Assembly: GCA_951406725.2 (NCBI GenBank)
Contig: OX597816.1
Location: forward strand, 59,644,001-59,708,000
Length of the DNA: 64,000 nt
Direction: 5' to 3'
Source: Octopus vulgaris
Lineage: Eukaryota
Shown: piece after piece, positions 1,541-52,590 of the stretch
Numbering within the stretch: position 1 is the first letter of the stretch
Layout of the letters: each line of letters opens with the position of its first letter
Notes under the pieces: generated by a model
Databases searched by the model: none
Seen by the model: only the letters and a program-made list of their open reading frames with translations
Told to the model about the DNA's origin: nothing
Position numbers and translations under genes: made by a program

Positions 1541-1848
1541 TTTTACTCGAGTCAGTCACTAGGTTATGACCATGCTGGAGCACCATCTACAAGAACTTTA
1601 GTCGAATCGAACCCCAAGTACTTCTTTTTCTTTTAAGCCTGGTCTGGTATTTTGCTTGTTGGCCTTTTTTGCCGAACCGATAAGTTACTTATACGATAGG
1701 CTTCTTTCAGTTTCCGTCTACCAAATCCACTCACAAAGCTTTGGTTACACCGAAGCTTTAGTAGAAGGCATTTGCCCAAGGTGCCACGCAATGGGATTGA
1801 ACTCGGAATCATGTGGTTGGGAAGCAAGCTTCTTACCACACAGCCACG
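1541..1848 (-). mobile_element. tRNA-derived SINE, family 1 (octopus type), internally deleted
   Basis: Minus strand has A box TGGCTGTGTGG, B box GAGTTCAATCC, then GCACCTTGGGCAA. The same family recurs many times in the window. Confidence 0.85.
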
Positions 1849-2314
1849 TCTATGTATATATGTGTATGTGTTTAATTCTTCATTAGGAACGACACCAGGA
1901 TTTTTTTTTTTTTGTGTGTGTGTTTTTTAGGAAGCATGAGATGGTGGTGATGATAGTATTTTGTAGGCTGAACTGACCCACGTATATTACGAATATTTAT
2001 TTCATTAATACCTTACCACCACCACACATTCCAGTACCAAGATACCAAGTGGCGGACTGGGTAAAAAAATATTGGTTGCCAGGAGACATGGGGAGGCCCG
2101 CCCGCAACTACAGTGCTATCATTTATTTATTTTTTATTTTTTTTGTCAAAAGTATTCTTTTCAACTGTCTACAAACACAACCAAGCTGAAATAATTAATG
2201 CATTCTTCCAAGAGTGAATATAAAATTCTCAAACTTGAGAGGATGGGCCCCCGATATATAGATTCTAATGGCGCTAGGGATTCTGAAAACTGACAGTACC
2301 CAAATGAATATATA

Positions 2315-3075
2315 CAGGGTGCGATGGGTAAATTGGCGACATTTATATTTTTAATTTCGCGCATGCGCATTATTTTATTTTTTTTGTCGACTACACAGTA
2401 TGGTAGGGTCAGTTGGGCACTATCTGTGAGAAAAACAGCACCATGACCCAATTCACTCTGCCAGAAATTTGGAAACAACGTGCTGTACTGCTTGGCATTC
2501 GCACCGGAAGCTCTGGTACGAACATTTCAGAGTGTTTGGGTGTCAATCTGAGGACATGTACTGAGAGTGATAAAAATCAAACATCCAGCCAACACCATGG
2601 TGTTTGGAGTGATCACTAGTGATGGCGACGTTGTGCCTCCGTTCATCTTCCCACACGGCCTCAGATTCAACGCGGAGGCCAACATCAAGTGCCTGGAGGA
2701 GGTAGTGCTGCTCTGGGTCAAGAGGGTAGCTGCTGGAAGACCCTATGTCTGGCAACACGACTCTGCACCATACTACCCAAGCAGGAGAACCCAGTCATGG
2801 TTGTCAGACAATTTCTGCGACGACATCTCCCCTAACATCTGGCCACCTAACTCCCCAGACTGCAACACCCTTGATTATTATGTGTGGGGCGCGGTTGAGC
2901 GGGAGACCAACAAAACTCCTTGTAACACTGAATATGAAATGAAGGCAAGGATTATGGCAGCATTCACCAACTTAAACAAGGAGACCATCCAGAAGAGTTG
3001 CAGGAGATTCCGAAGTTGTCTGGAGCCTGAAGCCAATGGCGATTTTAATGAATAAATTTACTCTTTAGTATTGCA
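2315..3075 (+). mobile_element. Tc1/mariner maT (DD37D) transposon, internally deleted, right end lost
   Basis: Left end is TA|CAGGGTG. ORF 2567-3055 contains WQHDSAP...WPPNSPDCNTLDYYVW, with 37 residues between the last two catalytic Asp. Confidence 0.9.
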
Positions 3076-3089
3076 AGATATTTTTATGT

Positions 3090-3475
3090 TATTGTTGTAT
3101 TTCGGGACGGTCATCATTTTTTTTTCCAAATAAACACATGCACCATATATTTTTTCTTCATTCGTTTATTACTGTTCTTATTTTATTAACTCATGTCCAT
3201 TGTCCGGAAATCTTTCGTCACACATCTGTGACCTCTTCAGCGATACTTTTCTTTTCGTGTGTGTTCTTGCTACACTTACTCCATTCTTTTCTTAAGATTT
3301 CCGGACAATGGACAAGAGTTAAAATGATAAAATAAGAACGGTAAGAAACGAGTGAAAAAGAAAATATGTATAGTGTGTGTTTATTACGCAAAAAAAAAAA
3401 CCCCACAAAAAAACGACCGGTCCGAAATACAATATCTGTTTCAACACACGATTTCATATCAGGAATCTTGCAAAA
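3090..3475 (-). mobile_element. Foldback of a hammerhead-carrying, Penelope-LTR-like non-coding repeat (family A)
   Basis: Imperfect inverted arms at ~3090-3214 and ~3293-3435. The same sequence occurs at ~54040-54207 and ~56309-56470. Confidence 0.7.
3203..3245 (-). ncRNA. Minimal type I hammerhead ribozyme motif, core intact
   Basis: Minus strand: tatcg CTGAAGA G GTCACA gatg TGTGAC GAAA gat TTC cgga. Stem II is perfect; stems I and III are weakened. Confidence 0.75.
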
Positions 3476-3514
3476 CGAATTGATAAACGTATTTTTATGT
3501 TAAAATGAGATGTA

Positions 3515-3799: not shown

Positions 3800-4120
3800 C
3801 TTTCGGTACGTAAAAAACACCATCCGAACGTGGCCGATGGCAGCGCCGCCTTGACTGGCTTCTGTGCCGGTGGCACGTAAAAAGCACCAACCGATCGTGG
3901 CCGCTGCCAGTACCCCTCCCCCCGTGGCACCTGTGCCGGTGGCACGAAAAAAGCACCCACTATAACCACGGAGTGGTTGGCGTTAGGAAGGGCATCCAGC
4001 TGTAGAAACACTGCCAGATCAGACTGGAGCCTGGTGCAGCCTTCTGGCTTCCCAGACCCCGGTCAAACCGTCCAACCCGTGCTAGCACGGAAAACGGACG
4101 TTAAACGATGATGATGATGA
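3800..4120 (+). mobile_element. RTE LINE 3' UTR fragment with (GAT)n tail
   Basis: Matches the 3' UTR downstream of the RTE ORF end at 14001-14473 and ends GGACGTTAAACGATGATGATG. Confidence 0.85.
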
Positions 4121-4246
4121 TTCTCCCTCTTTGTTTCTCTCTCCCTTTCCCACTCTCTTACTCTTCCTTTCTCTCGGACTCTCCCTCGCTTTCTCTTACT
4201 CTCTATCTTTCTCTCTCCCATTTATAAATAATATATATATAACAAG

Positions 4247-15580: not shown

Positions 15581-16308
15581 TAAAGATTATTTGCCAACAT
15601 AACATGGCAGTCCTGGTTTAGGACAAATGTTGCTGTAATTTAGCCCCAGGAGACATCGTCTCCAGCTGGCTATACAACACGATCTGTGTCCTTATATTTT
15701 TGAACAAGGGAATCTAGCATCCCCACTCAGTTCAAAACAATATCTGTGTATTGCAATTTCCAGGTTATTTCCCTTCAGCACAGAATAACTGTTCAGCTAG
15801 AGGGAAATAACCCAGAAATCGTGATACACAGATATTGTATTGAGCTGAGTGGGGGGTGCTGAATGTCCTTGTTCGAAAAAAAAAGGACACAGATCGTGTT
15901 AGAAAAATACTATTTTTAAATCTCACCACGTGATATATTCAGCAACAGTACTTTGTAGTAAAGATTGTTTGCCAACATAACATGGCAGTCTTGGTTTAAG
16001 GAGACATTGTCTCCAGCTGGCTATATGATATGATCTGTGTCCTTATATTTTCGAACAAGGGAATCTAGCACCCCCACTCAGCTCAAAACAATATCTGTGT
16101 ATCACGAATTCCGGGATATTTCCCTTCATCGGCACAGAATAATTGTTTGGTTAGAGGTGGTGCTGCCATATTCCCGTTCGAAATATAGAGTTTTCAAAGT
16201 GACAACTAGTCACTGATTTATAAATTAGAAAATTACTGTTTTTAAATCTCACCATGTGAGATATTCAGCAACAGTACTTTGGGGTAAAGATTGTTTGCCA
16301 ACATAACA
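15581..16308 (-). mobile_element. Retrozyme-like tandem array (~2.1 units of a ~350-nt hammerhead repeat, family F)
   Basis: Units start at 15581, 15959 and 16285. Minus-strand hammerhead motifs at 15744-15783 and 16095-16137. Unit 1 carries a ~100-bp internal inversion. Confidence 0.8.
16095..16137 (-). ncRNA. Minimal type I hammerhead motif (family F)
   Basis: CTGTG CCGATGA A GGG aaatat CCC G GAAT TCGTGA TA CACAG. Consensus with the sister copies restores CTGATGA and GAAA. Confidence 0.7.
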
Positions 16309-16756
16309 AATTGTAAAATTGGTAAGTTCTTCATATTGAGAATAGTTGACATTATATTGACACTCCATCAGTAACCAAGGGCCCTAGTTGATCCAATCAA
16401 TGGAACAGTCTACCCATGAAATTAACATGCATGGTGGCTGAACACTCCACAGCCAAGTATAATTACCTTTGCTGTAGTTTCCAGGGAGATTCCACTTGAC
16501 ACAGAATGTAACAAGGCTGGCCCTTTGGATTACATGTACAACTCCATTTTGCCAGATGAGTGGGCTGGAGCAATGTGAAATAAAGTGTCTTGCTCAAAGA
16601 CACAATGTGTCAAAAAGAATGGAACACACAACCTTACAGTCATGAGTTGAATATCCTAAATATTAAACCACGCACCTTCACTAATTGACATTATAATATT
16701 GCTCTCACTCCCTCTCTTTCTGGAGAAATGTCAGTATTTCTTACCATTATTCTTTT

Positions 16757-17558
16757 ATTCTTTTGTTTCAATCATTTGGCTGTGGCCATGCTGGAGCACC
16801 GCCCTTTAGTTGAAGAAATTGACTCCCAGGACTTATTTTCTGTAAGCCAAGTACTTATTCTATCAGTCTCTTTTGATGACCCACTAAATACGGTGACATA
16901 AACACACCAACATCGGTTGTCAAGCGATGGTGGGGGATAAAAACAGACACACACAAATATATATATACATCATCATCATCATCGTCGTTTAACGTCTGCT
17001 TTCCAGGCTAGCATGGGTTGAATGATTTGACTGAGGACTGGTGAACCAGATGGTTGCAGGCACCAATCTGATCTGGCAGAGTTTCAACAGCTGGATGCCC
17101 TTCCTAACGCCAACCACTCTGAGAGTGTAGTGGGTGCTTTTATATGCCACCGGCACAAGGGCCAGTCAGGCAGTACTGGCAATGGCCACGCTCAAATGGT
17201 GTTTTTTACATCCCACCTGCACAGGAGCCAGTCCAGCGGCACTGGCAACGACATCACTCGAATGTTCTTTTCACGTGCCACTGGCATGGAAACCAGTCAG
17301 CTGCTCTGGCAATGATCACGCTCAGATGGTGCTCTTAGCGCTCCACTGGCACAAGTACCAGTCATCGAATTTGATTCGATATATATATATATATATATAA
17401 CAGGCTTCTTTCAGTTTCCATCTACCAAATTCACTCACAAGGCTTTGGTTGACCCAAGGTTATAATAGAAGACACTTGCCAAAGGTGCCATGCAGTGGGA
17501 CTGAACCCAAAACCATGTGGTTGGGAAGCAAGCTTCTTACCACACAGTCATGCCTGTG
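16757..17558 (-). mobile_element. SINE family 1 interrupted by an RTE 3' UTR fragment (~16968-17380)
   Basis: The two SINE halves flank a (CAT)n-initiated RTE tail inserted in the SINE's internal microsatellite. Confidence 0.8.
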
Positions 17559-17901
17559 CCTAATGGAATAAAATAAATACCCAAACTCTGTATGTGTAAA
17601 ATAAACTGGTTGTTGCCTTAGCATCAAGTCAAGCATACTTTTAATGAAAGGCATTCTAACCATGACCTTCCCAATTTATAGAGTTCTAGGATTACTATTA
17701 TCCAATTTCATCCTTTTTTTTCTTTGTTCTTTTTTTGTTGTTACCTTGGTTGGATATTATCTTTGGGAAATTTGGCAGCTAAACAAGAACATTGATGCCA
17801 CAGAGCTAGTAGGACTTCATTTGGTGGCTGGCAAAGATTATCTTTTTATTTGTTTACTCTTTTTTCTTTTGAGAGTAGAGGGTGTGGTTTGTATTTTAAC
17901 T

Positions 17902-34400: not shown

Positions 34401-37399
34401 TTAGAAAATGCTTCATAATCTCTGACATTTTCTCAGAGACACCCCACATTCCTTATTTTAGTAGTGGAGTAGTTCTAAACGGTTCACAAAAATGTGAAAA
34501 TGGCCTACACTATTACTTCCACATTTTTTAGGCACACCCACTGTGCACACATAGGCTAGCAAGGGAGCCTCTCTCTCAATATGCTGGCAATAGCAGCTGA
34601 CTCTCCCTCATAGCACTCCTTAATGTCTTATTAAAAAAAAGTGTTGGGTAATCTGATCCTAGGTTTTTGGACTTAGGGCAAAGACGGAATGGTCATGGCT
34701 GGACTGCCTTTTAATCATAGGTCTAATCAACAGCTACCCATGCATCTATGCCCCAGCTGTATGATATATATACACACACTTATAACTTTCTGTCAAACTA
34801 TATTCTTCCTTTATTTCTTCAATCTCCAAGTTCTTCAGTTGTCTCTTTTATTGTATCTTAGTGCCCACCTTGCTCAATGTTTCCCATTTCCTTCACAGCT
34901 TACTTCTCTTTCAATTACTACCAATTCTCTTAACTGAAATTGTATGAAAATGATAAAGGCACTTGTCTATCTCTTGAACAAATAGCATGTAAATCAAAAT
35001 GGTGTTGCTTTTGGACTTCATCTATTTCTTTTGCCACCACATTCTGAATGGCTTGTTTCAGCTGGGATAATATGCATTCGTCTCTGTCTTGACATTACAT
35101 GATACTTGCAAATATGTGTCAGCCATATAATGTCCTTCGTTTCCAAGCTTACATGTCTGGTCATAGGAAGTATAACTTGGAAACAAGCCAGGGTTGGTGA
35201 CAGGAAGGGCATCCAGCTGTCCAAAAATCCACTTCTGTGAATTCAGTCTGACCTATGTGAAAATGGAGAAGTGAACATTAAAACTATGATGCTTGGAATT
35301 CATTTTAAAATTTAGGCATATCACATATGAAGTATTAAGATATTTATGTTGCTTGGTCCTGGATAATCTCTAGTTTAGAGGCTATTCAGGACTTGTTATC
35401 CACTGTCATCAAACATATTTCTGATAACTGAATTTAGGTTGTTCCAATTCATTATCATTTAACATCCACTTTTCCATGCATGTTAGATTTGTTGAGGCAG
35501 ATTTTCTATGGCTGGATGCCCTTCCTGTTACCAACAATCACTTGTTTACAAGTAAGGCCATATTTCCTGTGACCAGACATGTTTTCTGCTGAAGGCTGAA
35601 AACGAATGTTTATTTGACAGTAATACTCATTTATTACCATCATGTGATGTCCATACAAACAAATATATATGACAGGCTTCTTTCAGTTTCTACCTATCAA
35701 ATCCACTCACAAGTTTTTGGTCAGCCTGTGACTATAGTAGAAGGCACTTGTAAGATTCCACACATTGGGACTGACCCAATGACCACAGGGTTAAGAAAGC
35801 TTCTCAATTACATAACCAAGTCTACACCTTCAAGTTTGTTTGAGATATATCGTGCATGACCTTCGGAAATGGTAAAATATTGGAAGGAAGATTAGAGAAT
35901 GGATTGTAAGCATTTTATCAAACAGCCAACATTCTACATTAACTCTTCTTCTTAGGTATGGCTACTTAAGTAGTTTACTTTGCAACCACAAGATTTCAAG
36001 TTCAGTCTCACTGTGTGGCACCTGAGGAATATATCTTCTATAGTTGAGGCTGACCAAAAACTTGTGTGGAATAGGTTAACGGAAACTGAAAGAAACCCGT
36101 CACACGCATGTGTTTCTTTACATTTTTGCTTCCCCAAATGTTGCTGAGTAACGAGTGGCCGTGTCTTCATTTCTCCTCTCAACAAATCATCTGATCTTGC
36201 AGCTTGGGGTATGAGACCCCTAATCTGAAAATTATATAACAGTAACTGATTGGGCATCTGATTGTAAAACAAAAGCTTCAATGTATTTGTCTATCCCTTA
36301 GAAAAACAAATATGACCAAATATTCTGTGTTAAATTTCTTCCCTTCTCATAGGATCCCAATTACCCCTCTTGAAATACCAACCAGATATATTGGTAGAAA
36401 ATACAGACTTTTAAATTATAAGATATTTTAATTATATATGCATACAAATATGTTGATGTTAAATAAAAGTGCATAATGCACTGTTGTAACCTGAGGTCAG
36501 CTCTAACCAACAGATAGCCAGCCATGTGATTAGACATGATCCATAAATCTATTATTCTAGTTATGCCGTATCTCTTTCTTGTAGAATATCATATTGCACA
36601 CTTTGGCACATAGTGTAAATACTGCTCTCCACTCGTTTCTGAATACCTTGAGAGTGTAATAGTTGACTCTGGTCAGAGTGCAGCAGTTACCATTCTTTTG
36701 CATCTGCTATTGGGTAATAGACATGCTATTGTTGTCTTTCCTCACATCTTTGTTCCATCTGTACTACTAAGCCTACCACTCCCAATCTTCTGTCTTGTCT
36801 CTCTTCCACCTCCCTCCCCTTCCTTGTCCTAGATTGCCAAGTATCTCCCCTGTAATAAGACAGCTATTCTTGTCCCATGATCATACTCTAGCTTCTAGCC
36901 TAGCACACAGCCACCTCTGTCAGTTCCTCTCCCTCTCTCAGCTGAGAGAGGGTGAGGAACTGAATTTGGTTAATGGGAACCATGTCATGTGAATGGCTGT
37001 ATAGGTTTTGTATGTATGTCTTTTGCCATAAGCATAGAATGTAAATATTGAAAGCAATGAGAAAAGTCAGTTTTCTTGGTGCAAAGTCCCTTATGATATT
37101 TGTTCTGTACTAAAACACTCCCTTGTCACTCATCATATAGTGAACCAGTTACTGTCCTCTTGAGAATCTGTGAATATTTTACAATTTTCTTAATCTTTTA
37201 TCTTTTACTTGTTTCACTCATTAGACTGTGGCCATGCTAGGGTACTGCCTTGAATTTTTAGTCGAATGAATGGATCGCAGTACTATTTTTTAAGCCTGGT
37301 ACTTATTCTATCTGTCTCTTTTGCCAAACCGTTAAGTTCTGGGGATGTATACGCACCAACACCGGTTGTCAAGTGATAAGGGGACAAACACACACATAC

Positions 37400-38275
37400 A
37401 CATCATCATCATCATCATCGTTTAATGTCCGCTTTCCATGCTAGCATGGGTTGGATGATTTGACTGAGGGCTGGCAAACCAGATGGCTGCACCAGGCTTC
37501 AATCTTGATCTGGCAGAGTTTCTACAGCTGGATGCCCTTCCTATCGCCAACCACTCCGAGAGTGTAGTGGGTGCTTTTACATGCCACTGGCATGGGGCCA
37601 GTCAGGTGGTACTGGTTACGACCTCGCTCAAATCTTTTACACATGCCACTGGCACAGGTGCCTGTAAGGTGATGCTGGTAACAATCACACTCGAATGATG
37701 TCTTTTATGTGCCACCGGCACGGAGGCCAGATAGCTGCTCTGGCAACAATCATGCTCGGATGGTGCTCTTAATACCCTACTAGCATGGGGCTCAAATGCC
37801 AGTAAGGTGACGCTAGTAACGATCACACTTGAATGGTGCCTTTTAAGTGCCTCTGCCACGGAAGCCAGTTAGCCGCTCAGTCAGTGATCACATTCATATG
37901 GTGCTCTTTGCACCCTGTTAGCATGGACGCTAGTCATCGATTTTGATTTCACTTGCCTCAACAGGTCTTCGCAAGCAGAGTTTTAGTGTCCAAAGAAGGA
38001 AAGGTACACATAGTGGGCTGGTTACGCCCCTGGCATAGGCCATGAGATTATGGTCTCATTTGGCTTACCTGGTCTTCTCACGCACGGCATATTTCCAAAA
38101 GTCTCGGTCACTAGTCATTTCCTTGGTGAGGCATAAAGTTCGAAGGTCATGCTTCACCACTTTATCCCAGGTCTTCCTGGGTCTACCTCTTCCAGTTTCC
38201 CTCAACTGCTAGAGTGTGACACTTTTTCACACAGCTATCCTCATCCATTCTCGCCACCTGACCGTACCAGCACCG
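37400..38275 (-). mobile_element. RTE 3' portion nested in a SINE family 1 copy (~37200-38482)
   Basis: (CAT)n tail, 3' UTR subrepeats and WYGQVARMDEDSCVKKC. Confidence 0.85.
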
Positions 38276-45300: not shown

Positions 45301-46668
45301 GTGATTAATATTAATTCAGCCTAATTCAATCTTGGTAAGTACAGCTAGTTACACAAGACATGTTGGGTCTTATTAGATCATCTCCTCAAAGCAGCCTTCT
45401 TTATACTTGTCACATTGGTGATAGAACATTCCCTGTATTGATGTATAATAATGTATAGAGGGAGGGTGTTGCATTCATGATTGCAACACACCATGTTTTT
45501 TTTTTTCAATTCCAGACTAGGAAGTGTGTTGTGTACTTGAGCAAAACTTAATTTCATTTTAAGTCCACTCAGTTGTAAATCAGTAACCCTGTGACAGACT
45601 GGCATTTCATTCAGGGGGCATGTTGTGATCTTGTTTGCTTGTTCACCATAGAAACTGGGTTAAGCCATTCCTTTGTGTCCTAGTACTCAAGACTGTAATG
45701 TCCAGGGGATTCATGTTGACTTGAGTATCAACACTAGCATAAGAATTGAGTTAAATTACTCAGGTCTCCCGCTATAGTTGCATGTAAGTTAACTTGGAAA
45801 GGTACTGGGTTCAAATGTCTGTAATCAGCAATGGAACCGATATTCTGAGAGTCAGGAAAGCTGTGTTTAAGAAGACTTAATCAACGTTTCTGTTGTTACT
45901 AACCCATCATTTATGCAGGTAGATTAAGACATTATCCAAGATGTCCCCTCTTTGATTTTAAGATGTTAGCATGTAATTTGAGTGTTCTTTGCCCTCAAAT
46001 CATTATAGATTCTATATTCCTCATAGTTATTGATTACAAATTTTGGCACAATGCCAGCAATTTTTGGGAGAGGATAAGTCAATTGCATCAACCCCAGTAC
46101 ACAACTGGTACTTGTTTTATCAACCCCAAAAAGATGAAAGGCAAAGTCAACCTTGGAATTTGAACTCGGTGTGAATTCCTCCTAGTTATTGAATTTGTCA
46201 GACACTTCATTAGTCTTTACAAATAGAGGACTATCACTAGTTTTCCCTGGTTTCCAGATTTTATACCAAGTAAATTATTGTTACTAATAATTATCACTTA
46301 GCGTCCACTTTCCATGCTGGCATGGGTTAGATGGATTGACAAGATCTGGAGAGCTACAGAGCCATGTGGAGCTCTAGTGTCAACTTTCAGCTTGGTTTCT
46401 ACAGCTAGATTCCCTTCCAAAACCAAACCTTTTACAGTGTGTACTGGATGTTTTGTTTTTTGGTACCACCACCACCACTAGTGATGTTACCAAGTAACAT
46501 GTAAGACAAAAGAACAAGTGTTGTGGTAGGGGAGACCTCAACTAAATAGGGGTGAGGGGTAATATTTGAGGGGGAGAATTTCTCATAATCTTCAGAATTA
46601 TGAAAACAGACATCAGTTATAACTTGCTTTGAAATAATTCATTAATTCAGTAAACACTAAAAGTGTTG

Positions 46669-47082
46669 GAGTAAAGATTGTTTGCCGACATAACATGGCA
46701 GTCCTAGTTTAGGACAAATGTTGTTGTAATTTAGCCCCAGGAGACATTGTCTCCAGCTGGCTATACGACATGATCTGTGTCCTTATATTTTCAAACAAGG
46801 GAATCTAGCACCCCCACTCGGCTCAAAACAATATCTGTGTATCACGATTTCCGGGATATTTCCCTTCAGCAGCACAAAACAATTGTTCGGTTAAAGGTGG
46901 TGCTACCAAATTCCTGTTCGAAATATAGAGTTTTCAAAGTGACAACTAGTCACTGATCTACAAATGAGAAAATTACTATTTTTAAATCTCACCAGGACTG
47001 CCATGTTATGTTGGCAAACAATCTTTACTCCAAAATACTGTTGCTGAACATCTCTCGCTGTGAGATTTAAAAATAGTAATTT
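46669..47082 (-). mobile_element. Family F retrozyme-like insertion with a 13-bp TSD and a terminal inversion
   Basis: TSD ACTAAAAGTGTTG at 46656-46668 and 47083-47095. Minus-strand hammerhead at 46835-46877. Segment 46991-47082 is inverted. Confidence 0.85.
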
Positions 47083-47977
47083 ACTAAAAGTGTTGTTGAA
47101 TTTAAATGTATTCAAAGTGTATTACAGGTCAATTTGGAGGTCCATTAATTGTATTAGCCCTTCAGCATTCAGATTACCCTGTCAAATCTAATGCTAATTT
47201 ATTCACATTGTTTTGAATCTTGTATTATCTTGTAGCTTCAGGATTTCAATGATGTGATTGTTTATTTTTAGAAAGACATTGTAGGGTAGATGTGAGAGGT
47301 TGGATGTGGCTGGTTTGAACATAAAACAGAAAGTTTGGGCTGGATATGCTAAAGGAACACTAAAGGGTTAATCTTAAGCAAACTCAATTGTTTTGGTTTT
47401 AACATTGAGCTTAGAGCTTGTGGTCTTTCTTTTTCCCCTTCTTCACTTTCTTCAGAAGTGGAAGTATTGTTTCGGAAATGTCTTTTTCGACAATTAACAT
47501 AAATAAGTAATTTGTTGTTCCAACAAAGGAGTCCCCTCCCCATTCTGCTACCATTTCAGTTAATTTGTTAATGTATCTTTTGTATTTAGTTTCTGAATGC
47601 CTACATCTTGTTTCAGTTATTAGATTATAGCCATGCTGAAGCACTGCGTTGGAGAATTTTACTCAAACCCAAACCAGGACTTATTTTTTAAATTTGGTAT
47701 TTTATCAGTCTCATGTTGAACTGCTAAGTTATGAGGATACAAACAAACAAACACCATTTGTCAAGTGATGATGGGGACAAACACACGACTGGCTTCCAAT
47801 TTCTGTCTACTAAATTCATTCCTGGGGCCATATTGGGATGTCACGCAGTGAGACTGAACTTGAAATCATGTACTTGTGAAGTGAACTACTTAACCACACA
47901 CACACATGCATGCCTGCATCTATCCATGTATTCATTATTCTGCTGAGTTATTTGTTTATTGATATTTACTGATTCTG

Positions 47978-51179: not shown

Positions 51180-52115
51180 ATCATCGTCATCCATGCTGAC
51201 ATGGGTTGGACGGTTTGACTGAGGACTGGTAAGACGGGAGGCTGCACCAGACTCCTATCTGATTTGGCGAAGTTTCTACAGCTGGATGCCCTTCCTAACA
51301 TCAACCACTCTGAGAGTGTTGTGGGTGCATTTTATGTGCCACAGGCATGGGAGCCAGTCTGGCGGTACTGGCATCAACCACGCTCAAATGATGCTTTTTA
51401 CGTGTCGCCAGCACAAGTGTCATTCAGACGGCACTAGCATCAGCCACAACTATGGTTTCACTTGGTTCAACAGGTCTTCACAAGCATGGCATATTGCTCA
51501 ACGATTGAAGGGTGCTTTAAAATGGACCAGTTATGTGACACTGGCATTGGCCAAAACTACATTCTCACTTGGCTTGCCGAGTCTTCTCAAGCACAGCATA
51601 TCTCCAAAAGTGTCGGTTACTTGTAGGTCTTGATAGCTTAATATATATATATATATACATATATCATCATCATCATCATTGTTTAACATCAGCTTTCCAT
51701 GCTGGCATGGGTTGTACAGTTTGACTGAGGACTGGCGAGCCAGAGGCTGCACCAGGCTCAATCAGATATCTGGCAAAGTTTCTACAGCTGGATGCTCTTC
51801 CTAATGCCAACCACTCTGGGAGTGTAGTGGGTGCTTTTTACGTGCCACTGGCACGAGGGCCAGTCAGGTGGTTCTGGCAATGACCACGCTCAAAAGGTGT
51901 TTTTATGTGCTACCTGCATGGGAGCCAGTCCAGCGGCACTGGCAACGACCACGCTTGAATGGTGTTTTTCATGTACCGGTAAGGCGACGCTTGCAATGAT
52001 TATGCTTTTTTCATGTGTCACCGGCATGGGAGCCGATCCATGGCTGTGGCAACAATCACACTCACATATACTTCTTTTAACATTCCACTGGCATGATTGC
52101 CAATCAGGCAATACT
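51180..52115 (-). mobile_element. Two tandem RTE 3' UTR fragments
   Basis: (CAT)n tails at ~51181 and ~51664 plus the conserved UTR. Confidence 0.8.
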
Positions 52116-52116
52116 G

Positions 52117-52199
<83 letters not shown>

Positions 52200-52212
52200 C
52201 ATACACACACAT

Positions 52213-52590
52213 AGGCGCAGGAGTGGCAGAGTGGTAAGTAGCTTGCTTACCAACCACATGCTTTCGGGTTCAGTCCCACTGCGTGGCACCATGGGCCAGT
52301 GTCTTCTACTATAGCCTCAGGTCGACCAAGGCCTTGTGAGTGGATTTGGTAGACGGAAACTGAAAGAAGCCGGTCGTATATATGTATATATATATATATT
52401 ATGTGTGTTTGTGTGTGTCCCCGATGCTGGTATGTTTACTTCCCTGTAACCTAGCGGTTCGGCAAAAGAGACCAATAGAATAAGTACTAGGCTTACTAAG
52501 AATAAGTCCTGGAGTCGATTTGATCGACTAAAGGCGGTGCTCCAGCATGGCTGCAGTCAAATGACTGAAACAAGTAAGAGTAAAAAAGAG
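52213..52590 (+). mobile_element. Full-length SINE family 1 copy
   Basis: A box TGGCAGAGTGG, B box GGTTCAGTCC, an internal (TA)/(TG) tract and the tail TGACTGAAACAAGTAAGAG. Confidence 0.9.

What the first reader, a model, noticed from the sequence alone, without database searches (positions are those of the whole stretch)
46656..47095. Dispersed family F copy reads through the monomer junction, suggesting a circular or multimeric RNA template
Seen: a perfect 13-bp TSD encloses ~325 nt of the unit plus a 92-nt inverted piece joined by ACCA microhomology. The inverted piece contains the unit end running directly into the unit start, so the insert exceeds one monomer, and the hammerhead cleavage site is internal. 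Inference: target-primed reverse transcription with inversion from a circular or concatemeric RNA. Caveat: this copy and the 15581 array begin within ~2 nt of each other, implying a preferred priming site rather than random permutation.
Basis: partly seen in the sequence, partly recalled or inferred. Interest (0 to 1): 0.75.

Follow-up and report, generated by a model that had tools for sequence, protein, structure and literature searches.

The report
Hammerhead retrozyme primed from both ends
This is one of thousands of old copies of a small protein-free jumping repeat with a predicted self-cutting RNA motif, and its two back-to-back pieces start at two fixed points, likely because a Penelope-type enzyme copied an uncut RNA from both ends of a DNA break; whether that RNA was a circle is not shown.

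Summary
The 13-bp duplication, the 324-nt piece, the 92-nt inverted piece and the internal type I hammerhead are real. The copy belongs to a 353-nt non-LTR retrozyme family (about 2,800-3,500 search candidates; 191 insertions mapped). It is one of two internal priming sites, A (about R173) and B (about R228, counted from the ribozyme cut); the stretch between them is the Penelope 'tail'. Where both ends of an insertion lie at these sites, 101 of 102 pair A with B. Duplications are 10-15 bp, with a preferred AAC-N12-GTT target. This fits the two-site internal initiation shown in vitro for a Penelope-like element. The conclusion survives for another reason: the long arm crosses the hammerhead cut, as 153 of 288 arms do, so the template was uncut or re-ligated. 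Successive units in one arm differ at subfamily sites in 17 of 53 pairs, which favours mixed multimers over a single circle. No empty site, circular RNA or partner element was found. The scan has already reported this architecture for other families in this genome. New member of a known kind.

The parts
46653..46655 (+). AAC target motif next to the left duplication (predicted bottom-strand nick)
   Evidence: sequence; AAC at this place in 20 of 67 inserts against 1.7% background
46656..46668 (+). Left target-site duplication, 13 bp maximal; its last 1-3 nt also match the element at site A
46669..46992 (-). Arm A: copy begun at internal site A (R171-174), running back through the hammerhead cut to R201 of the previous unit; RNA sense is the minus strand
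46834..46878 (-). Type I hammerhead with palindromic short helix III; predicted cut between 46840 and 46839; core mutated in this copy
   Evidence: structure kept with changed stems in a sister family; not matched by Rfam
46991..46994 (.). Head-to-head junction of the two arms; 2 nt shared (4 nt against the 15581 variant)
46991..47082 (+). Arm B: 92-nt inverted piece begun at site B (R223), R132-R223; does not cross the hammerhead cut
47033..47082 (+). Penelope-type tail (R174-R223), a predicted hairpin between the two priming sites
   Evidence: compare PMC11167929
47083..47095 (+). Right target-site duplication; GTT at 47095-47097 lies 12 nt from its start (predicted top-strand nick)
15581..16308 (-). 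Second family copy in the window: begins at site A (R168), about two units with an internal inversion at 15801-15899; no clear duplication

Best explanation
This is a dispersed copy of a 353-nt non-coding repeat with a predicted type I hammerhead (a non-LTR retrozyme), likely pasted in by a Penelope-like RT/GIY-YIG enzyme that primed reverse transcription from both ends of one staggered DNA cut. Shown in sequence: two head-to-head arms between 10-15 bp duplications, one arm ending at site A and the other at site B, arms that cross the ribozyme cut. Inferred: a dimeric enzyme cuts AAC-N12-GTT-like targets leaving about 12-nt 3' overhangs; the two 3' ends start copying on either side of the tail hairpin, mostly on the same RNA variant; the cDNAs run back for variable lengths and are joined by 1-3 nt microhomology. 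Inferred: the template was mostly an uncut or partly cut multimeric transcript; some templates began at a hammerhead cut; circles may have contributed.
For: Outer RNA-3' ends: 139 at A and 149 at B of 334; A+B 101, A+A 1, B+B 0, p 2e-29 against independent choice. Duplications of 10 bp or more in 71 of 101 against 6 of 300 controls, 56 of them 12-15 bp. AAC left of the duplication in 20 of 67, GTT 12 nt on in 17 of 67, AAC background 1.7%. For 14 of 71 inserts a homolog spans the rebuilt empty site and shows the duplicated word once; the best are 85-90% alike, two are low-complexity. 153 of 288 arms cross the cut by more than 12 nt; 72 exceed one monomer (part of the sample was chosen for length). 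Successive units in one arm differ at R171, R196, R211 in 9/39, 6/34, 8/48, against about 1% expected from later mutation and 41-50% if independent; 5 of 42 switch at two or more linked sites. The two arms mostly agree at R196 and R211 (3/29, 4/33 mixed). Arm 5' ends are enriched at the cut, 32 against 15 expected. A colinear 357-nt sister family ends at the same two sites and keeps the hammerhead with changed stems. PMC11167929: a purified Penelope-like protein cuts and extends both strands, starts at two internal sites that bound the tail, and mostly uses uncleaved RNA. Intact RT+GIY-YIG ORFs exist in this genome.
Against: No autonomous partner found: none of 45 GIY-YIG loci has terminal sequence aligning to the unit, and the families inspected end in TA repeats. 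No empty site for this copy; contigs of four DNA runs carry the left junction (only 15 of about 510 joints shown). Ribozyme activity is untested and Rfam does not match it. About 80% of unit pairs agree per site, as a circle would give. The family is old (about 5-6% from the majority sequence), so later duplication, gene conversion or template switching could mimic mixed templates; L003 and L033 look locally duplicated. The excess of ends at the cut is not clear in the least biased subset (9 of 94 within 10 nt), and its bin was placed after a first look. 89 of 191 insertions lack two ends at A or B (one-armed or eroded).
Confidence: 0.78

Rival explanations
1. Same dual priming, but the template is a monomeric circular RNA that the enzyme runs around (rolling-circle reverse transcription), with occasional jumps between circles.
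For: Arms cross the cut (153 of 288) and reach 3 units. About 80% allele agreement between successive units. A-primed arms stop near site B more than expected, 12 against 3.7, as a collision with the B-primed cDNA on a circle would give. The unit folds well (z -5.3). Mussel, coral and axolotl retrozymes form circles (PMC7229834).
Against: 17 of 53 successive unit pairs differ at subfamily sites, 5 of 42 at linked sites. Ends pile up at the cut, as linear cut 5' ends would give. The stop at B can be a hairpin pause: B arms also stop at R211-230 (7 against 3.4), and B arms pass site A freely (84 of 90). One RNA run shows both strands equally, no ends at the cut, and 69% of reads running into flanks.
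Confidence: 0.3
2. The overlap is the fixed terminal redundancy of a linear Penelope pseudo-LTR, or the copy is a solo pseudo-LTR of an autonomous element.
For: The 3' overlap is the known tail; the inverted 5'-truncated copy with a tail on one end is the standard Penelope layout.
Against: 5' ends are spread round the whole unit. Flanks of 102 insertions share no element body, and the ORFs of 170 codons or more near them are mostly simple repeats or unrelated. The unit's longest open frame is 60 codons. Units run head to tail.
Confidence: 0.1
3. L1-style twin priming or DNA-level rearrangement of a tandem satellite produced the inversion.
For: Inverted arms joined by short microhomology; some arrays show later local duplication.
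Against: No poly(A) tail at either end. Second priming is at a fixed site, not near the end of the first cDNA (L1 model recalled). 101 of 102 A+B pairs and 10-15 bp duplications.
Confidence: 0.04

Closest known systems
Metazoan non-LTR retrozymes (PMC7229834; bioRxiv 10.64898/2026.07.22.740005)
   Same: 150-450 bp non-coding repeat, type I hammerhead with short helix III, thousands of copies as monomers and short arrays, duplications longer than 4 bp, Penelope-like elements in the same genome. Mussel units are 350-390 bp.
   Different: Circular RNA and self-cleavage are not shown here. The passages I read do not map insertion ends, two-arm structure or target motif.
Penelope/Poseidon element PAc (PMC11167929) and the Penelope layout (10.1101/2021.04.23.441226; PMC3846280)
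   Same: Two internal start sites downstream of the hammerhead bounding the tail; both strands cut and extended; inverted 5'-truncated arm; tail on one end; 8-10 bp duplications in rotifer elements.
   Different: No ORF. Tail about 55 nt rather than 30-40. Target AAC-N12-GTT rather than ATT. Near-obligate A+B pairing within one insertion was not measured in the text I read.
L1 twin priming (recalled, not read)
   Same: Both target strands prime; inverted arms joined by microhomology.
   Different: No poly(A); fixed internal sites; arms overlap widely and cross unit junctions.

Membership tests
Non-LTR retrozyme | Short (150-450 nt) non-coding repeat in tandem or dispersed copies | tested here: met
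   353-nt unit, longest frame 60 codons, 2,824-3,504 candidates, up to 3 units
Non-LTR retrozyme | Type I hammerhead in each unit | tested here: met
   CTGAnGA and GAAA intact in 139 of 191 passes; stems changed but paired in the sister family; no Rfam hit; mutated in this copy
Non-LTR retrozyme | No LTR, primer-binding site or polypurine tract; duplications longer than 4 bp | tested here: met
   10-15 bp duplications directly against the arms; no tRNA-primer search was run
Non-LTR retrozyme | Self-cleavage of the transcript | not testable with these tools
   Only indirect: arm 5' ends enriched at the cut
Non-LTR retrozyme | Accumulates as circular RNA | tested here: inconclusive
   One raw RNA run, both strands equal, no ends at the cut, mostly read-through
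Penelope-mobilised insertion | Two internal start sites with a tail on one end | tested here: met
   A 139, B 149 of 334 ends; A+B 101 of 102
Penelope-mobilised insertion | Inverted 5'-truncated copy and partial tandems | tested here: met
   129 of 191 are simple two-arm inversions
Penelope-mobilised insertion | Autonomous partner sharing terminal sequence | tested here: inconclusive
   RT+GIY-YIG elements present, but none of 45 loci (from 6,136 candidates) shares the unit
Autonomous Penelope-like element | RT + GIY-YIG ORF | tested here: not met
   No ORF in the unit or attached to 102 insertions

The most novel reading that the evidence does not exclude
Every two-armed insertion records one Penelope-type dimer cutting AAC-N12-GTT and starting two reverse transcriptases at once, one on each side of a single RNA hairpin, on a ligated retrozyme circle, with the A-primed enzyme running into the B-primed cDNA after 298 nt. 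This would be genomic evidence that animal retrozyme circles are the transposition intermediate, and would explain the Penelope tail and inverted arm as one reaction.
Probability: 0.25. Interest if true: 0.75.

Novelty: new member of a known kind. Interest (0 to 1): 0.42.

Why it matters
How Penelope-like elements make their tail and inverted arm, and whether retrozyme circles are the transposition intermediate, are open questions. A 353-nt element with 101 of 102 A+B ends and a defined 12-nt staggered target gives a sharp, testable model of one dimer priming both DNA strands. The copy itself is ordinary for its family, and it does not show a circular template.

Tried and rejected
Rfam found no ribozyme in the window or the 15581 copy; the hammerhead was found by inspection of the RNA-sense strand. 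Empty site by laying four DNA runs: none among the joints shown; all four carry the left junction, one at about 5% divergence, so the insertion is old. RNA run X24: the 119 reads that 'go back' 348-349 nt cross only the arbitrary end of my reference, which tandem DNA copies also do; not counted as circle evidence. A family copy 1.2 kb upstream of a Penelope ORF in L258 lies outside that element's alignment with L253, so it is a chance neighbour. A 66-nt query returned nothing. PF26215 is not in the library. R25, R302, R330 and R235 were dropped as subfamily markers because they vary nearly independently between passes. L107 was dropped as a duplicate of L039. Query arms chosen for length were dropped from the stop-rate test. 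A+A and B+B pairing, fixed terminal redundancy and L1-type twin priming were considered and rejected as above.

Full report
Observation. The window is G000:C3:59644001-59708000 of a 2.8-Gb genome. The 13-mer ACTAAAAGTGTTG occurs only at 46656 and 47083. Between them are a long piece (46669-46992) and a 92-nt inverted piece (46991-47082), both homologous to the repeat at 15581-16308. The insert is 414 nt.

The unit. Own-genome searches gave 2,824 and 3,504 candidates, lower bounds with 40 scored per search. The majority unit is 353 nt with no frame over 60 codons and folds well above shuffles (z -4.6 and -5.3 for the two strands of the 15953 copy). The strand opposite the long piece carries a type I hammerhead: stem I, CTGATGA, stem II, GAAA, palindromic TCGCGA, TA, cut. 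Rfam did not match it. The core is intact in 139 of 191 passes; in this copy it reads CTGCTGA. A colinear sister family (357 nt, 217 of 372 columns identical) keeps the same fold with different stem I and helix III sequences. I number from the base after the cut (R1).

Ends. I mapped 191 distinct insertions from 220 loci plus the 15581 copy. Of 334 outer ends that are RNA 3' ends, 139 lie at R163-183 (A) and 149 at R217-238 (B). 129 insertions are simple head-to-head two-arm structures. With both ends at preferred sites the counts are A+B 101, A+A 1, B+B 0 (p 2e-29). The other 89 are one-armed or have an end elsewhere. In the sister family 4 of 5 two-arm copies among 25 loci pair the homologous sites.

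Target. 71 of 101 A+B inserts have duplications of 10 bp or more (56 of 12-15 bp), against 6 of 300 mismatched controls. Among 67 with 10-16 bp, AAC precedes the duplication in 20 (background 1.7%) and GTT follows 12 nt later in 17. This copy reads AAC-N12-GTT exactly. I infer two symmetric nicks leaving 12-nt 3' overhangs, each a primer. For 14 of 71 inserts a homologous repeat spans the rebuilt empty site with the word once. For this copy no empty site was seen; contigs from four DNA runs of four organism labels carry the left junction.

Template. 153 of 288 arms cross the hammerhead cut, 72 exceed one unit, 4 exceed two (partly selected for length). A cut linear monomer therefore cannot be the usual template; for this copy the shortest single template is 376 nt. 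A stop-rate test on 248 arms found excess 5' ends at R344-R10 (32 against 15) and at R211-230 (19 against 6.6; A arms 12 against 3.7 at R218-238). The first suggests some templates began at a cut; 33 of 107 arms at risk stop there, the rest read on. It is weak in the least biased subset (9 of 94). The second fits collision on a circle or a pause at the tail hairpin. Three linked non-CpG sites mark subfamilies. Successive units in one arm differ at them in 17 of 53 pairs, 5 of 42 at two or more sites; later mutation predicts about 1% per site, independent templates 41-50%. So units are usually related but too often different for one unchanged circle. Template switching, gene conversion and later duplication (L003, L033) remain possible, and the family is old. 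One raw RNA run gave 1,926 reads, both strands equally, no pile-up of ends and 69% running into unlike sequence: no evidence for or against circles.

Partner. GIY-YIG search gave 6,136 candidates, many in intact 781-codon frames with RT. None of 45 loci shares terminal sequence with the unit. The partner is unidentified.

Literature. PMC11167929 (main text read, parts 1-2 of 4): both strands cut and extended, two internal starts bounding the tail, uncleaved RNA the main substrate, dimer predicted. 10.1101/2021.04.23.441226 and PMC3846280 (passages): inverted 5'-truncated copy, tail usually on one end, 8-10 bp duplications. PMC7229834 (passages and part 3 of 6): animal non-LTR retrozymes, circles and multimers. 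10.64898/2026.07.22.740005 (parts 1-3 of 5): retrozymes as non-autonomous Penelope derivatives; its supplements were not seen. PMC9977147 (passages) added nothing. Five searches showed no paper on this family or on A+B pairing counts; the library lacks most subscription journals. L1 twin priming is recalled. The label 'cephalopod' comes from my recall and from earlier scan notes, not from a call.

Earlier scan notes. After I had stated my reading, one search showed eight notes on younger 359-495-nt families in this genome with the same two-arm Penelope footprint; several favour a single circle. No note matched this family by sequence. They are not independent support. My unit-switch counts argue against a pure single circle for this family.

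Verdict. Real, and explained as a retrozyme inserted by Penelope-type dual internal priming (0.78). Circular template possible but not favoured (0.3). New member of a known kind; interest 0.42.

Noticed in passing
L251:5577-5815 (G000:C14:47998576-47998814); L266-L290: Sister retrozyme family, 357-nt unit, 2,647 candidates, same hammerhead layout and same two ends, often next to TA repeats.
   Followed up: partly
L246-L250, L260-L262: Young Penelope-like family with intact 781-codon RT+GIY-YIG frames, copies 96-99% alike, ending in TA repeats.
   Followed up: partly
L251:4800-4855: A second Penelope-like family carries a minimal hammerhead with a variant CCGAAGA core in its terminal repeat.
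   Followed up: no
unit positions R25, R302, R330 across loci: G/T and G/A variants differ between passes within one insertion about as often as between insertions; possible copying hot spots or RNA modification.
   Followed up: no
L003, L006, L007, L025, L073: A 3-5 nt gap in the tail hairpin loop appears in the 3' unit but not the 5' unit in several insertions; may reflect an ordered source array or alignment of a slippage-prone loop.
   Followed up: partly
window 15581-16308: Second copy starts at A and has an internal inversion followed by a segment beginning at site B, with no clear duplication.
   Followed up: partly
L039 and L107: One insertion with its flanks is present twice in the genome, a segmental duplicate.
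   Followed up: no
window 1690-1870, 3805-4121, 16747-17560, 37190-37950, 51650-52590: Many copies of two or three short interspersed repeats, unrelated to the finding.
   Followed up: no
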